Shown here: positions 1 to 3,212 of the stretch, piece after piece | Layout of the letters: each line of letters starts with the position of its first letter | Position numbering within the stretch: the stretch's first letter is position 1 | The notes under the pieces: model-generated | Databases searched by the model: none | Told to the model about the DNA's origin: nothing | The model's input: the letters and a program-made list of their open reading frames with translations, nothing else | Assembly (NCBI GenBank): GCA_038817835.1 | Contig: JAWAZI010000001.1 | Span: 44,948-108,947 of the forward strand | DNA: 64,000 bases | Direction: 5' to 3' | DNA from: Candidatus Pacearchaeota archaeon | GTDB lineage: Archaea; Nanobdellota; Nanobdellia; Pacearchaeales; JAPDKA01 | Translations under genes and position numbers: made by a program

Positions 1-734
1 TTTATTTTGTTATTAATTAATTGATCAATATTTTCATTATTTTCATAAACACCATTTACTAATGCAAAATCTATATTGTGTTCTCCAAATTTTTCTATTT
101 TTCCTCCAGCTCCAATAGCAAGTAAAGCAAGCAAATTATTAATTTCAAAATAACTTGAAACATTAGTGTTTGTGATAGTATTTTGATTCGTTATTATTTC
201 AACTCCATTTTCAGTTTTAGTTTCATTATATAATTCTTTATTTTCACTATAACTTATATCGTAAATGTTTGATGAATTATTAGAGATACTAAATTGGAAA
301 GAGTTTCTTAAATTTTTTCCTTCAAATCTAAAGCAACCACCAACATTATTATTAGTAATTGTATTTTTTTGTATAGATGAAAAATATTCGTTTACTTCTC
401 TATAATAATTTCCTCCTTCCTCTATAGATTTAAAATTTGTATTATAATTTTCTCTTGTTTTTCCTTGTTGATTTTCAAAAAATATATCACAAAAACTCCA
501 TGATAAACCAAGAGTTCCTAGATTTTTACTTCCATCAAAATTTTCTGAATTGAATTTTTCATGATTTAATAGATAAAATATCTTTAAATTGTTTATATCA
601 AATTTATGGAAAATTTCTATTTTTTTATTTTGTAAATGATTTTCAAATTTACTAATTATTTCAGAACCATTTATATTTCCTAATAAAAATAAAGGTAAAA
701 ATAACTTGATAAATTTACTTTTTAGTGATACCAT
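1..734 (-). CDS. hypothetical secreted protein; 3-prime end runs off the left window edge
   Basis: Minus-strand frame opens at ATG 734 (MVSLKSKFIKLFLPLFLLGNINGSE..., signal-peptide-like). It stays open to position 1. It is absent from the supplied track because it is edge-truncated. Asn-rich, no family recognised. Confidence 0.45.
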   Translation of the reverse strand, partial: MVSLKSKFIKLFLPLFLLGNINGSEIISKFENHLQNKKIEIFHKFDINNLKIFYLLNHEKFNSENFDGSKNLGTLGLSWSFCDIFFENQQGKTRENYNTNFKSIEEGGNYYREVNEYFSSIQKNTITNNNVGGCFRFEGKNLRNSFQFSISNNSSNIYDISYSENKELYNETKTENGVEIITNQNTITNTNVSSYFEINNLLALLAIGAGGKIEKFGEHNIDFALVNGVYENNENIDQLINNKI

Positions 735-803
735 TCTAAAATTAAAATATTTATTTTTTAAACTTTTTCTTTTTATTTTATTACCAAATGATGCTAAACA
801 ATG

Positions 804-1118
804 CTAAATAGCCCTTATTAATTTACAATCCCTATTTAATTCAACAAAATGGTTAGCTTTGCCTTCTCTATAATTTTTGCATTGATTTTCATATAAATTA
901 TCTATTTCTTCTCTAGGCCAACTTGCTATATCACAAACCCAATCATCAATATGCCATTCATATAAATCAGATAGACATTGACTAACAAGATTTAATTCTT
1001 TTTTTGCTTTTTCACAAAGTTCTATGCATTTCTCTATTGCTAAATCTTTATTTGTTTCCTTTTTACAACCAAAAAATAAAACAAAAAATAACAATATTAA
1101 TATTAAAAATTTTTTCAT
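804..1118 (-). CDS. small Cys-rich putative lipoprotein (lipobox-like FFGC)
   Basis: N-terminus MKKFLILILLFFVLFFGCKKE is a hydrophobic signal ending in a G-C lipobox-like cut site. The mature part has 7 further Cys. No family recognised. Confidence 0.6.
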   Translation of the reverse strand: MKKFLILILLFFVLFFGCKKETNKDLAIEKCIELCEKAKKELNLVSQCLSDLYEWHIDDWVCDIASWPREEIDNLYENQCKNYREGKANHFVELNRDCKLIRAI

Positions 1119-1151: not shown

Positions 1152-3212
1152 CTATTGTGATAAAGCTGCATTAATTAAATTATCTGGCCATCCAGCATTC
1201 TTTAATTTATTTCTTATTTCTTCATCACTCATTCCTATGTTTCTTGCTTTTTTTACATAATCTATTAATTCTGATGGTAATTCTTCTTCTACTTTGATTT
1301 CAATACCTTTTCTTCTTGATAAAAGTAAGATTAAAATTACAACAATAATTATTATTAAAAGTAATATTAATCCTAAAAATGGAAGATATTGTTGTAAATT
1401 TTTTTCTTTCTTTTTTGGAACAGTTGGTGGTGCTTGTTGAACTTCACAAGCTTGAACAGTTTGAGGTTTATCATATGTTGTTCCACAATTATTTAGATCT
1501 ATACATTCTCTAGTTTGAATTCCAGTATCCGGATCACAAATACTCCATTCTGAACATTGCCAATTTTCTATACATTGATATTGACAAGGTTTTGATTCTG
1601 TTGGCTTAATTAAAGATTGTAAGCAATTATAATTTCCCCCACAACCAGTTGTATTCCACCATTCAATATCAGATTGACTACAATTATTAATATCAATACA
1701 TGTTCTATATTGATAATTATTTGGTTGACAATCTTCCCAATTACTACATACCCAATGAGGGAAACAATATGATGGAGCACCTCCTCCACCACCACCTCCT
1801 CCACCAGTAGCACATCTATTTCCACTGCATCCATATTCACACTCTCTAAGTGGAATATAATGATCATCTAATTTAATTTCATCTGGAGCAAGATTATTTT
1901 CTACTAATTTTTTTATTACTTCGTTATAGCTATAGCAATAAATAGAAAAACCAAAAGTAAAGTCAATAGAAGCACTTGGACATGGATCTATGATTGGATT
2001 AACAGACCCCTGCCTATTTGATGCTATGTCTGATGCTATGTTACTTGCATTTATACATTTTCCATAGGCATCTTCTCCTTTATATATTAACCAAACTTTT
2101 TTTGTTTTATTATATTCAGTATTATTTACACAAACATAATTCCAGCTACATTCAATATTTTTTATACTAACATTAGTTTCTATACTATTTATTTCTACTT
2201 CATGGATTTTAGAATAAGGTGGTGGTACACCAATAGAAAAATTTACAGGTTCCTTAGATGGTATAGATGGAGGTATTGATGGGCATGGGCATTCTCGATA
2301 GCAACTTACTTGCGTATTTCCTTGACATATTGCAAAACATGCATTTGGATAAGTTATATTATCTATTCCACATACAGGACTCCAATTAATAGCATAATTG
2401 GTACATATAGTTATATAAGGTAGATTTGGTTGGTCCTGAGGAATTTGTTGTGCCATTCTACAAATTGGATTTGAGAAATTCCATGGAGTTTCCCATCTAT
2501 AAACTAATCTAAATGTTATATTAGCTTTTCCATCCCTATTTTTATCTATTAAAGGTATATTTAATTTTTCTAAATTAATAGTGTATATATTCGAGAAACC
2601 AAAACAAGAATATTTATTTATACATTGTTGTAGAGCTTCTTCATCAGAAGGAGACCAATAACATGAGGTTATATTTTTACATATACATATTTGATTTATT
2701 ATATTAATTCCATCTGGACATAAAAATTCTTTTATTTGACCAGCAGAGCATGATGTTGTTGCTGTTAATTTTGCTGGTTTTTCAGATTTAGCTATGATAT
2801 TTATTCGTGGTAAAGATTCACACCAAGTAAAACCCCAACCTTTTTGTGCAGGAGCTTTACCATTAACATTTCTAAAAACACCAAAACTTAAATTTCCTTT
2901 TCCAGCTTGATCACTTAAATTTATTATTTCTGCAAAAGTTAAATTTTTTACATTTATTCCTTCAACATAAATTTCAAAGGTTGCATTAACAGGAATTAAA
3001 TCTTTATGTGTATTATTTTTATTTAATGAAATAAACAAATTTCCCTTTAATTTTTCTCCAGCATAATATCCTTCTTGAAGAGAAGGTTGAAATACAATAT
3101 TTGCTGTTATTCCTTTATTATAAAAAGGATAAAGAAGAAAAAAGAAAAATAGATATAAAAATATTAATAAAAAAATTATTAAAACTGGGTTTATAGGAGA
3201 TTTTTCTTTCAT
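1152..3212 (-). CDS. large Cys-rich surface protein: N-terminal anchor, Kazal-like module, poly-Gly linker, two TSP1-like WxCSxW repeats, C-terminal TM and short cytoplasmic tail
   Basis: 686-aa ORF. Hydrophobic N-terminus. PVCGIDNITYPNAC resembles the Kazal signature. G9 tract. CFPHWVCSNWEDC..YRTCIDINNC and CIENWQCSEWSICDPDTGIQTRECIDLNNC repeats. TM LPFLGLILLLIIIIVVILILLL followed by a basic/acidic tail. Confidence 0.8.
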   Translation of the reverse strand: MKEKSPINPVLIIFLLIFLYLFFFFLLYPFYNKGITANIVFQPSLQEGYYAGEKLKGNLFISLNKNNTHKDLIPVNATFEIYVEGINVKNLTFAEIINLSDQAGKGNLSFGVFRNVNGKAPAQKGWGFTWCESLPRINIIAKSEKPAKLTATTSCSAGQIKEFLCPDGINIINQICICKNITSCYWSPSDEEALQQCINKYSCFGFSNIYTINLEKLNIPLIDKNRDGKANITFRLVYRWETPWNFSNPICRMAQQIPQDQPNLPYITICTNYAINWSPVCGIDNITYPNACFAICQGNTQVSCYRECPCPSIPPSIPSKEPVNFSIGVPPPYSKIHEVEINSIETNVSIKNIECSWNYVCVNNTEYNKTKKVWLIYKGEDAYGKCINASNIASDIASNRQGSVNPIIDPCPSASIDFTFGFSIYCYSYNEVIKKLVENNLAPDEIKLDDHYIPLRECEYGCSGNRCATGGGGGGGGGAPSYCFPHWVCSNWEDCQPNNYQYRTCIDINNCSQSDIEWWNTTGCGGNYNCLQSLIKPTESKPCQYQCIENWQCSEWSICDPDTGIQTRECIDLNNCGTTYDKPQTVQACEVQQAPPTVPKKKEKNLQQYLPFLGLILLLIIIIVVILILLLSRRKGIEIKVEEELPSELIDYVKKARNIGMSDEEIRNKLKNAGWPDNLINAALSQ

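What the first reader, a model, noticed from the sequence alone, without database searches (positions are those of the whole stretch)
2283..2405. Kazal-like protease-inhibitor module in an archaeal surface protein
Residues 270-310 of the 686-aa protein read CTNYAINWSPVCGIDNITYPNACFAICQGNTQVSCYRECPC. The core PVCG-x-D-x-x-TY-x-N-x-C matches the classical Kazal signature (compare ovomucoid PLCGSDNKTYGNKC), with plausible flanking Cys partners. Kazal domains are typical of animals and a few bacteria. In a cell-surface protein of an episymbiont-like archaeon, one could protect against host proteases or mediate adhesion.
Basis: partly seen in the sequence, partly recalled or inferred. Interest (0 to 1): 0.6.

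Follow-up and report, generated by a model that had tools for sequence, protein, structure and literature searches.

The report
Kazal-fold module in Pacearchaeota surface protein
A tiny symbiont-type archaeon (Pacearchaeota) has a real Kazal-type "protease inhibitor" domain in a conserved membrane-anchored surface protein. Such domains prove common in this archaeal group and are already auto-annotated, and this copy has an enlarged, invariant loop that fits a binding module better than a classical inhibitor.

Summary
Residues 270-310 of the 686-aa ORF (window 1152..3212, minus strand) read exactly as quoted. They score above Pfam's curated cut-off for Kazal_2 (30 bits for the whole protein and 36 bits for the segment, against 22.8). 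A domain-level AlphaFold model matches only Kazal-fold structures in the PDB, and its core lies 1.1-1.3 Å from LDTI and GmSPI-2.

The protein is a type I membrane, cysteine-rich surface protein. All 38 Cys and all 17 N-x-S/T sequons lie in the ectodomain. It belongs to a small Pacearchaeota family and is the first gene of a conserved surface-protein cluster.

It is not new as an annotation. NCBI already calls the 84%-identical homolog a [quoted passage not shown]. Kazal_2 also occurs in 77 of 401 genomes of this DPANN phylum.

What sets this copy apart is the would-be reactive-site loop. Its C2-C3 gap is 10, 12 or 29 residues across the family, against 7-8 in the other 21 units examined. The loop is also part of the most conserved stretch of the protein.

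I therefore favour a disulfide-locked binding or structural module (about 0.55) over a standard-mechanism serine-protease inhibitor (about 0.3). It is a new member of a known kind, of modest interest.

The parts
1152..3212 (-). Whole gene: 686-aa type I membrane, Cys-rich surface protein (P0001)
   Evidence: ORF, translation. Full-length orthologs at 39-84% identity. Two hydrophobic segments, with all 38 Cys and 17 sequons between them.
3120..3188 (-). N-terminal hydrophobic segment (about aa 9-31), a signal peptide or signal anchor
   Evidence: Kyte-Doolittle segment 3-33. AF2 helix 9-31.
2463..3107 (-). Ectodomain region 1 (aa 36-250), beta-rich, no family match
   Evidence: AF2 pLDDT about 70-87, mostly strands. 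No Pfam hit. 51% mean identity to distant orthologs.
2406..2462 (-). Invariant C251 (candidate Kazal C1) followed by a hypervariable linker (aa 251-269)
   Evidence: C251 is invariant in A1. The linker shows 8% identity to distant orthologs.
2283..2405 (-). Kazal-fold module (aa 270-310), the finding itself
   Evidence: Kazal_2 at 30/36 bits against a cut-off of 22.8. Domain AF2 model has pLDDT 86-92 over aa 274-313. Foldseek PDB matches are all Kazal-fold; the core is 1.1-1.3 Å from 1an1_I and 4hgu. It contains the most conserved 30-aa window of the protein, 77%.
2370..2405 (-). Enlarged loop between C2 (C270) and C3 (C281): CTNYAINWSPVC. It takes the place of the reactive-site loop of Kazal inhibitors.
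   Evidence: The gap is 10 here, 12 in distant orthologs and 29 in P0010. It is 7 or 8 in all 21 non-family units. N272, Y273, A274, W277, P279 and V280 are invariant in orthologs. The classical spacing signature is not met.
2217..2282 (-). Pro-rich hypervariable linker (aa 311-332)
   Evidence: 15% identity to distant orthologs. pLDDT below 50.
1812..2216 (-). Ectodomain region 2 (aa 333-467), fast-evolving alpha/beta region
   Evidence: AF2 secondary structure. dN/dS about 0.95 against the 84% ortholog, from small counts.
1779..1805 (-). Gly9 hinge (aa 470-478)
   Evidence: Sequence. A Gly run is conserved in all orthologs.
1446..1766 (-). Two Cys/Trp repeats (aa 483-589), CxxWxCSxWxxC...R.C.D.NNC, which look like thrombospondin type 1 repeats
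   Evidence: Alignment A1. This part of the profile (positions 553-610) accounts for most of the 7093 hits in the representative search. It is the subject of a separate first-reader note (item 1).
1317..1394 (-). C-terminal transmembrane helix (about aa 607-632), followed by RRK
   Evidence: Kyte-Doolittle segment 605-639. AF2 helix 610-633.
1155..1316 (-). Cytoplasmic tail with a conserved three-helix motif, PxELxxYVKK..G.S..EI..KLK.AGWP..LI
   Evidence: Invariant columns 646-679. AF2 helices 647-658, 663-672 and 677-685 at pLDDT 77-88. Only sub-threshold SinI and RecX_HTH1 hits.
804..1118 (-). Downstream 104-aa lipobox-like Cys-containing ORF, the conserved next gene in the cluster
   Evidence: ORF. 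A 104-aa gene sits in the same place beside P0003, and an 85-aa gene beside P0006. No Pfam hit.
3..734 (-). N-terminal part of the 491-aa secreted protein, third gene of the cluster. It is followed outside the window by a 2001-aa Big_7/Big_9/CARDB protein and a 589-aa CARDB protein.
   Evidence: The same order is seen in L029 and L027.

Best explanation
Residues 270-310 form a genuine Kazal-family domain: a small helix plus a short beta-sheet, locked by disulfides. It is displayed outside the cell in a conserved single-pass (type I) membrane glycoprotein of Pacearchaeota. My confidence in that identity is about 0.93.

In this family the Kazal scaffold most likely serves as a rigid binding or structural knob. 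Its enlarged, invariant C2-C3 loop (NYAxNWxPV) would present a fixed recognition surface to a conserved partner. That partner could be another part of the same surface apparatus or a host-cell surface component. A classical substrate-like, standard-mechanism serine-protease inhibitor is less likely.

The gene is the first in a conserved cluster of secreted or surface proteins: a small lipobox protein, a 491-aa protein, a 2001-aa Ig-like/CARDB giant and a 589-aa CARDB protein. This fits a cell-surface or attachment apparatus.

Shown: domain identity, topology, conservation pattern, loop enlargement and gene cluster. Inferred: the disulfide pairs C251-C296, C270-C292, C281-C308 and C304-C310, and the binding role.
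For: Identity:
- Kazal_2 scores above the curated cut-off.
- PDB sequence hits are all Kazal-fold proteins.
- The domain AF2 model has pLDDT 86-92 over aa 274-313.
- All 50 listed Foldseek PDB matches are Kazal or FS-Kazal domains. The core superposes at 1.1-1.3 Å over 33-34 residues on LDTI 1an1_I and GmSPI-2 4hgu.
- C270, P279, C281, G282, Y288, N290, C292 and C308 are invariant across 20 diverse units.

Extracellular display: hydrophobic segments at 3-33 and 605-639, with all 38 Cys and 17 sequons between them.

Binding rather than canonical inhibition:
- The C2-C3 gap is 10, 12 or 29 only in this family. It is 7 (18 units) or 8 (3 units) elsewhere, including canonical CT[R/L/M]EYxPVCG units in the same order.
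- The classical spacing signature is not met, while canonical DPANN units do meet it.
- The module holds the most conserved 30-aa window of the protein (77% against 47% overall). The loop is 72% conserved and is flanked by linkers at 8% and 15%.
- It is a single module embedded in the middle of a multidomain ectodomain, as in follistatin, hevin and FSTL1, which also appear among the sequence and fold matches.
- Presence of Trypsin_2 proteases is not enriched in Kazal-positive genomes of the order: 7 of 12 against 126 of 201. The own genome has no subtilase.

Cluster.
Against: - No biochemical test exists.
- The spacer Asn (N290) and the PVCG-x-D-x-x-TY core of true inhibitors are retained. A longer loop could still dock in a protease active site.
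- Canonical Kazal units in related genomes are probably real inhibitors, so inhibition is the ancestral function of the fold in this lineage.
- The own genome does encode one membrane-anchored S1 protease that could be a target.
- The AF2 domain model was built with canonical Kazal sequences in the alignment, so it leans towards that fold.
- The C251-C273 part of the model has low confidence (pLDDT 54-74). No coordinates were available to measure Cys-Cys distances.
- An invariant loop is also what a conserved endogenous protease target would produce.
Confidence: 0.55

Rival explanations
1. The module is a working, surface-displayed standard-mechanism serine-protease inhibitor. It would shield the symbiont's surface proteins from host or environmental S1/S8 proteases, or restrain the organism's own membrane-anchored S1 protease. 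If the loop is aligned backwards from C3, the P1 residue would be I275, or Ala/Ser in the orthologs, which predicts elastase- or subtilisin-like specificity.
For: Significant homology to MEROPS I1 / Pfam Kazal. The Kazal core fold is predicted. The spacer Asn N290 and Y288 are conserved. The location is extracellular. Canonical Kazal mini-proteins with varied P1 residues (R, L, D, M) occur in the same order, so the inhibitor function probably exists in the lineage. The own genome encodes a membrane-anchored Trypsin_2 protease.
Against: The Cys that normally sits at P3 (C2) is displaced by 3-5 residues. In distant family members the loop grows to 29 residues, so the covalent brace of the canonical loop is lost or moved. 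The classical signature is not met. The loop is invariant rather than hypervariable. There is no co-occurrence with Trypsin_2 in the order. G007, which carries the family member P0010, has no Trypsin_2 hit. The own genome has no S8 protease.
Confidence: 0.3
2. The module is mainly a structural spacer. It would be a small disulfide-rich, protease-resistant knot that stiffens the stalk between two ectodomain regions and has no specific ligand.
For: It sits between two hypervariable, low-confidence linkers. The protein carries several other Cys-rich mini-modules, namely the two Cys/Trp repeats. DPANN surface proteins use Kazal units in many different architectures, from 131 to 7533 aa open frames.
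Against: A pure spacer would not need invariant surface-exposed loop residues (N272, Y273, A274, W277). It would also not be expected to be the most conserved block of the whole protein.
Confidence: 0.1
3. The similarity is a chance match of a Cys-rich segment, or the gene is a contaminant or recent foreign insert and not truly archaeal.
For: Short Cys-rich motifs can give spurious HMM hits. The paper PMC13607799 raises 'classification artifacts' as one possibility for DPANN Kazal assignments.
Against: E-values run from 5.8e-7 to 6.8e-9 with non-Cys motif residues matching. The fold prediction agrees. The gene lies in a 118-kb contig, and its first 4 kb have about 25% G+C, like the rest of the window. 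Synteny next to the IF-2B / form III RuBisCO / HAD operon is conserved in orthologs at 84% and 43% identity.
Confidence: 0.03

Closest known systems
NCBI-annotated 'Kazal-type serine protease inhibitor domain-containing protein' of Candidatus Pacearchaeota (P0003, assembly GCA_038895215.1, contig JAWANT010000001.1)
   Same: 84% identical over the full length, with the same architecture and the same neighbours: the IF-2B/RuBisCO/HAD operon on one side, and the 104-aa, 491-aa and 2001-aa surface genes on the other.
   Different: Essentially nothing. It is the same protein family, and it is named by an automatic pipeline only, with no functional study.
Non-classical Kazal inhibitors: leech-derived tryptase inhibitor (PDB 1an1, 1ldt, 2kmo) and Galleria mellonella silk protease inhibitor 2 (PDB 4hgu, 2m5x)
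   Same: The best structural superposition of the core, from C3 to C6: rmsd 1.1-1.3 Å over 33-34 residues at 35-42% identity. The domain is compact with a short helix.
   Different: These are free, secreted single-domain inhibitors with a C2-x7-C3 reactive loop. Here the module is embedded in a 686-aa membrane protein. Its loop is 3-5 residues longer, and it has an extra Cys pair (C304 and C310) flanking C6.
Ovomucoid third domain (OMTKY3/OMSVP3; PDB 2ovo, 1cho, 3sgb) and ovomucoid 1yu6
   Same: The best sequence and Foldseek E-values. The shared motif is PVCG-x-D-x-x-TY-x-N-x-C, with C3-x6-Y-x3-C4 and the spacer Asn.
   Different: The classical C2-T-P1-E-Y-x-P-V-C3 loop is replaced by C-T-N-Y-A-I-N-W-S-P-V-C. 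C4-C5 is x3 rather than x2, and the distance from C5 to C6 is shorter. Over 60 columns the model deviates by about 6 Å because the N-terminal third does not superpose.
Non-inhibitory Kazal-like modules of multidomain extracellular proteins: follistatin (2b0u, 2p6a, 1lr7), FSTL1 (6jza), hevin/SPARC FS domain (7kbu), OATP/SLCO extracellular loop (9dxp, 8pg0), RECK (8tzp)
   Same: A single Kazal-like unit built into a larger extracellular protein and used for binding or architecture, with loops that depart from the inhibitor consensus. They appear among the sequence and fold matches.
   Different: No FOLN/EGF-like subdomain precedes the module (no such Pfam hit). There is no evidence of direct descent from these animal proteins. 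The match scores are weaker than to true inhibitors.
Canonical tandem-Kazal mini-proteins of the same archaeal order (L002, L005)
   Same: The same lineage, the same Pfam family, and secreted or anchored.
   Different: They are 172-180 aa with two units each. They have ovomucoid-like CT[R/L/M]EYxPVCG or CSDEYIPVCG loops with C2-x7-C3 and variable P1 residues, which is what real inhibitors look like.

Membership tests
Kazal domain (Pfam PF07648 Kazal_2 / PF00050 Kazal_1; MEROPS I1) | Profile-HMM score above the curated gathering threshold | tested here: met
   Kazal_2 scores 30.0 bits on the protein and 36.1 bits on the segment, against 22.8. Kazal_1 scores 24.6 bits on the segment against 21, but 20.6 on the whole protein, just below.
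Kazal domain (Pfam PF07648 Kazal_2 / PF00050 Kazal_1; MEROPS I1) | Core motif around C3-C4: P-V-C-G-x-D-x-x-T-Y-x-N-x-C (C3-x6-Y-x3-C4, with the spacer Asn) | tested here: met
   P279-V-C281-G-I-D-N-I-T-Y288-P-N290-A-C292. These columns are invariant across 20 diverse units.
Kazal domain (Pfam PF07648 Kazal_2 / PF00050 Kazal_1; MEROPS I1) | Fold: a short alpha-helix packed on a small antiparallel beta-sheet | tested here: met
   The AF2 domain model has strands at 280-282, 287-288 and 302-304 and a helix at 291-296, with pLDDT 86-92. All top PDB matches are Kazal-fold, with core rmsd 1.1-1.3 Å. Caveat: the alignment used contained canonical Kazal units.
Kazal domain (Pfam PF07648 Kazal_2 / PF00050 Kazal_1; MEROPS I1) | Disulfide topology 1-5, 2-4, 3-6 | tested here: inconclusive
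   Candidate cysteines exist for all six positions: C251, C270, C281, C292, C296 and C308. Across the 20 units of A3, C2, C3, C4 and C6 are universal. In the units inspected, C5 appears only where an upstream Cys is available. C304 and C310 are present or absent together. No model coordinates were available to measure S-S distances.
Kazal inhibitors proper (standard-mechanism, classical signature as I recall PROSITE PS00282) | C2-x7-C3 reactive-site loop with C2 at P3 | tested here: not met
   The gap is 10 here, 12 in distant orthologs and 29 in P0010. It is 7 or 8 in the other 21 units. A regex of the classical signature finds no match in P0001 but does match the two canonical DPANN units tested, L002 unit 2 and L013. 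The signature string itself is recalled from memory.
Kazal inhibitors proper (standard-mechanism, classical signature as I recall PROSITE PS00282) | Tight-binding inhibition of an S1 or S8 serine protease | not testable with these tools
   This needs recombinant protein and enzyme assays.
Follistatin/SPARC-type FS domain (FOLN + Kazal-like) | An EGF-like FOLN subdomain immediately N-terminal to the Kazal-like subdomain | tested here: not met
   No FOLN or EGF family appears in the Pfam scan, even at E up to 10. The preceding 19 residues are a hypervariable linker.

The most novel reading that the evidence does not exclude
In this Pacearchaeota family the Kazal scaffold has been repurposed. Its enlarged, invariant NYAxNWxPV loop would be the recognition element by which a conserved surface-protein cluster (Kazal protein, small lipoprotein, 491-aa protein, 2001-aa Ig/CARDB giant) binds a host-cell surface structure. 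More broadly, DPANN archaea of this phylum would carry a large, diversified and essentially unstudied repertoire of Kazal modules, present in about 1 genome in 5. That repertoire would include both canonical secreted inhibitors and derived binding modules, used in symbiont-host contact.
Probability: 0.25. Interest if true: 0.55.

Novelty: new member of a known kind. Interest (0 to 1): 0.3.

Why it matters
DPANN archaea depend on contact with host cells, yet almost nothing is known about the proteins on their surface. This case shows that a domain best known from animal protease inhibitors is a regular building block of those surfaces: 77 of 401 genomes of the phylum carry it, against none of 14 model prokaryotes. 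That contrasts with a 2026 survey, which treated such DPANN-unique fold assignments, Kazal among its examples, as mostly singletons and possibly artefacts. The protein family here offers a clean comparison between canonical inhibitor-like units and a derived unit with a remodelled loop. It could therefore be used to ask whether these modules inhibit proteases or mediate attachment. In itself it is one more auto-annotated example, not a new kind of system.

Tried and rejected
1. The full-length AF2 model on 7 orthologs gave pLDDT below 50 over the Kazal region. Its PDB fold search gave nothing significant, so it was useless for the module. The domain-level model replaced it.
2. A word-indexed homolog search restricted to residues 262-315 found only 4 candidates, all from the family itself. 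It gave no wider taxonomic picture.
3. A genome-contig scan with the domain alignment returned only 4 bacterial loci (Flavobacteriales, Bacteroidetes, a deltaproteobacterium) and no orthologs. It was not informative on origin.
4. A cluster look-up of the closest multi-Kazal hits gave almost no names, only one from the green alga Caulerpa. The source of the 'C-x3-C-x7-C-x3-C-P-C' subtype stays unknown. I attempted no tree, because about 40 aa is too short.
5. The endogenous-target idea: the own genome has no subtilase and one Trypsin_2 protease. Trypsin_2 is not enriched among Kazal-positive genomes of the order (7 of 12 against 126 of 201), so there is no support from co-occurrence.
6. Chance match and contamination were considered and rejected (see the rival explanations).
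7. The FS-domain (follistatin) membership was rejected because there is no FOLN subdomain.
8. dN/dS against the 84% ortholog suggests more constraint on the module (0.35) than on the whole protein (0.63). It rests on 9 substitutions, so it is only indicative.
Full report
**The observation**

The 686-aa ORF lies at window 1152..3212 on the minus strand. Window 2283-2405 translates exactly to the 41 residues quoted, which are aa 270-310.

Pfam Kazal_2 (PF07648) matches at 30.0 bits (E 5.8e-7) on the whole protein and at 36.1 bits (E 6.8e-9) on a 58-aa segment. The curated cut-off is 22.8. Kazal_1 scores 20.6 and 24.6 bits against a cut-off of 21.

phmmer against PDB sequences returns Kazal-fold proteins throughout. 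The best are ovomucoid 1yu6_C (3.4e-7) and the Anemonia elastase inhibitor 1y1c (6.7e-5). PSTI, LDTI, rhodniin, infestin and follistatin also appear.

A six-frame scan of the whole 572-kb assembly finds this single site (E 7.9e-9) and nothing in 14 control genomes.

**Organism and protein**

The window has 21-28% G+C. It lies in a 118.6-kb contig of a 0.57-Mb genome that is 87% complete.

The nearest homologs are named by NCBI as 'MAG: Kazal-type serine protease inhibitor domain-containing protein [Candidatus Pacearchaeota archaeon]', at 84% and 87% identity. All eight homolog clusters carry a precomputed PF07648 hit. At the level of automatic annotation, the domain assignment is therefore already public.

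The protein has two hydrophobic segments, at aa 3-33 and 605-639. All 38 cysteines and 17 N-x-S/T sequons lie between them, and RRK follows the second segment. This makes it a type I membrane protein with a disulfide-rich, probably glycosylated ectodomain of about 573 aa.

Along the chain the parts are:
- a beta-rich region (aa 36-250);
- the invariant C251 and a hypervariable linker;
- the Kazal module (aa 270-310);
- a Pro-rich hypervariable linker;
- a fast-evolving alpha/beta region (aa 333-467);
- a Gly9 hinge;
- two Cys/Trp repeats that look like thrombospondin type 1 repeats (aa 483-589);
- the transmembrane helix;
- a conserved three-helix cytoplasmic tail.

**Family and genomic context**

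A profile search of 1.84 billion representative proteins finds only three full-length ortholog clusters and two distant full-length relatives, P0010 (865 aa) and P0011 (806 aa). Most of the 7093 hits come from the C-terminal Cys/Trp repeat, and some are multi-Kazal proteins.

The gene is divergently adjacent to the IF-2B-like / form III RuBisCO / HAD operon. This holds in this genome, in the 84% ortholog and in a 43% ortholog, so the gene is resident and not a contaminant.

Downstream on the same strand follow four more genes:
- a 104-aa lipobox-like ORF;
- a 491-aa protein with no family match;
- a 2001-aa protein with Big_7, Big_9 and CARDB domains;
- a 589-aa CARDB protein.

As far as the fetched flanks reach (small ORF, a protein of about 480-490 aa, then the ~1900-2000-aa giant), the same order is seen beside two orthologs. 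The Kazal protein therefore heads a conserved surface-protein cluster.

**How common Kazal is here**

Kazal_2 is found in 12 of 201 genomes of the order. In the phylum it is found in 77 of 401 genomes and 62 of 281 genera. The architectures range from mini-proteins of about 80 aa to open frames of 3251 and 7533 aa.

In the open-access library, the only paper found that names Kazal in DPANN archaea is a 2026 fold survey. It names Kazal among its examples of 23 'DPANN-unique' fold groups (21 of them singletons) and attributes them to gene transfer or classification artefacts, 'not systematically verified' (PMC13607799). Searches pairing 'Kazal' with Woesearchaeota, Pacearchaeota, Nanoarchaeota or CPR listed no other paper holding the word among those shown.

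Earlier notes of this scan also report Kazal modules on DPANN and CPR surface proteins in at least 25 genomes. I treat those as leads, and they agree with my own tally. In this lineage the domain is a regular surface building block.

**Structure**

The full-length AF2 model was poor over the module, with pLDDT below 50.

A domain-level model was built on 20 sequences: 7 orthologs, 2 distant relatives and 11 diverse Kazal units (alignment A3). It gave a mean pLDDT of 77, with 86-92 over aa 274-313. It has strands at 280-282, 287-288 and 302-304 and a helix at 291-296.

All 50 listed Foldseek PDB matches are Kazal or FS-Kazal domains. The core superposes on LDTI (1an1_I) and GmSPI-2 (4hgu) at 1.1-1.3 Å over 33-34 residues. 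Alignments that include the N-terminal third deviate by about 6 Å.

There are three caveats. The alignment contained canonical Kazal units, which biases the model towards that fold. The C251-C273 part has low confidence. No coordinates were available, so disulfide geometry could not be measured.

**Cysteine pattern**

Across the 20 units, C270 (C2), C281 (C3), C292 (C4) and C308 (C6) are invariant, as are P279, G282, Y288 and N290.

C296 (C5) occurs only in units that also have an upstream Cys available for C1; here that is the invariant C251. C304 and C310 occur together or not at all. They form the 'C-x3-C-P-C' ending shared with L006, L010, P0038 and P0105.

This co-occurrence argues for the pairs 1-5, 2-4 and 3-6 plus an extra C304-C310 bridge. 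It is an inference, not a measurement.

**The loop**

In Kazal inhibitors, C2 sits at P3 of the reactive-site loop and C2-x7-C3 is nearly universal. This is established knowledge of family I1, for example OMTKY3 C16-T-L18-E-Y-R-P-L-C24.

Among the 26 distinct Kazal-like units in the loci fetched here, the C2-C3 gaps are as follows:

| C2-C3 gap | Units | Where |
|---|---|---|
| 7 | 18 | Outside this family |
| 8 | 3 | Outside this family |
| 10 | 2 | This protein and its 84% ortholog |
| 12 | 2 | More distant orthologs |
| 29 | 1 | P0010 (distant family member) |

The same order contains mini-proteins with textbook loops: CTREYVPVCG, CTLEYMPVCG, CSDEYIPVCG and CTMDYNPVCG. A regex of the classical signature matches the two canonical units tested (L002 unit 2, L013) but not P0001.

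The enlarged loop is also not variable. N272, Y273, A274, W277, P279 and V280 are invariant in orthologs that share only 39-49% identity overall. The window 271-300 is the most conserved 30-aa stretch of the whole protein, at 77% against 47% overall. It is flanked by linkers at 8% and 15%.

Against the 84% ortholog, dN/dS is about 0.35 for the module, 0.63 for the whole protein and 0.95 for aa 311-467. The counts are small, so this is only indicative.

**Possible protease targets**

The own genome has no Peptidase_S8. It has one membrane-anchored Trypsin_2 protease of 315 aa.

In the order, 126 of 201 genomes carry Trypsin_2, compared with 7 of the 12 Kazal-positive genomes. G007, which carries the family member P0010, has none. 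Co-occurrence therefore gives no support for an endogenous target.

**Interpretation**

The module is a genuine member of the Kazal family, with about 0.93 confidence. For function I weigh two readings.

- Inhibition is the ancestral role of the fold, and the spacer Asn and core motif are kept.
- Against that, the covalent brace of the canonical loop is displaced, the loop length drifts across the family (10, 12, 29), and the loop sequence is invariant among orthologs rather than hypervariable. The unit is also a single module embedded in a multidomain surface protein, like the non-inhibitory Kazal-like modules of follistatin, FSTL1, hevin, OATPs and RECK, which also appear among the matches.

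I therefore favour a disulfide-locked binding or structural knob that presents a fixed loop to a conserved partner (0.55). A working standard-mechanism inhibitor is second (0.30), a pure spacer third (0.10), and an artefact last (0.03).

**Novelty and score**

The domain, its presence in bacteria and its automatic annotation in this very protein family are all known. The modest additions are the lineage-wide frequency, the enlarged and conserved loop variant, and the conserved surface-gene cluster. I rate it a new member of a known kind, with interest 0.3.

Noticed in passing
window 3..1118 (-) and L030 3407..13066 (= G000:C1:36406-46065): A conserved five-gene, same-strand surface-protein cluster. 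It runs: Kazal protein, a 104-aa lipobox-like ORF, a 491-aa protein with no family match, a 2001-aa Big_7/Big_9/CARDB giant, and a 589-aa CARDB protein. As far as the fetched flanks reach, the same order is seen beside orthologs P0003 (L029) and P0006 (L027).
   Followed up: partly
window 1446..1766 (-), aa 483-589: Two Cys/Trp repeats (CxxWxCSxWxxC...QTRxCxDxNNC) account for most of the 7093 hits in the 1.84-billion-protein profile search, so this is a very widespread module with no Pfam model. The full-length model's weak PDB matches include TSP1-bearing complement C8/C9 chains and midkine/pleiotrophin; these are not significant.
   Followed up: partly
window 1155..1316 (-), aa 633-686: The cytoplasmic tail has a strongly conserved three-helix motif, PxELxxYVKK..G.S..EI..KLK.AGWP..LI, modelled at pLDDT 77-88. 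Only sub-threshold SinI and RecX_HTH1 hits were found. The same tail occurs on many unrelated ectodomains among the profile-search hits (best stretches around profile positions 650-707).
   Followed up: no
window 1812..2216 (-), aa 333-467: Against the 84%-identical ortholog, the stretch aa 311-467 (this region plus the preceding linker) evolves almost neutrally (dN/dS about 0.95), while the Kazal module and the C-terminal repeats are constrained. It may be a diversifying, exposed surface. The counts are small.
   Followed up: partly
L002 1243..1785 (+) and L005 1411..1929 (-), other genomes of the same order: Small membrane-anchored or secreted proteins with two textbook Kazal units each: CTREYVPVCG and CTLEYMPVCG in one, CSDEYIPVCG and CTMDYNPVCG in the other. 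The P1 residues would be R, L, D and M. These are the best candidates for real archaeal Kazal inhibitors.
   Followed up: partly
L026 1087..2034 (+) = G000:C10, own genome: The genome's only Trypsin_2 hit (it has no Peptidase_S8) is a 315-aa protein with an N-terminal membrane anchor, a TNYHV motif and a GNSGGP serine motif. It scores lower (76.6 bits) than the typical order-wide copy (about 115-130 bits), so it is a divergent paralog or variant.
   Followed up: no
L009 220..2817 (-) (G007, same family) = P0010; also P0011: Distant relatives of 865 and 806 aa keep the whole architecture. They insert an extra Cys/Trp repeat near the N-terminus, and their Kazal unit is degenerate: a 29-residue loop, CGTDCKTYPNEC with an extra Cys, and a changed C-terminal Cys pattern. 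The module is being remodelled within the family.
   Followed up: partly
L017 (G203:C21) and L004 (G198:C6): Giant open frames of 7533 aa and 3251 aa in related genomes carry multiple Kazal_2 units, at least 7 and 3 hits respectively. Kazal units are thus also used as repeats in very large DPANN surface proteins.
   Followed up: no
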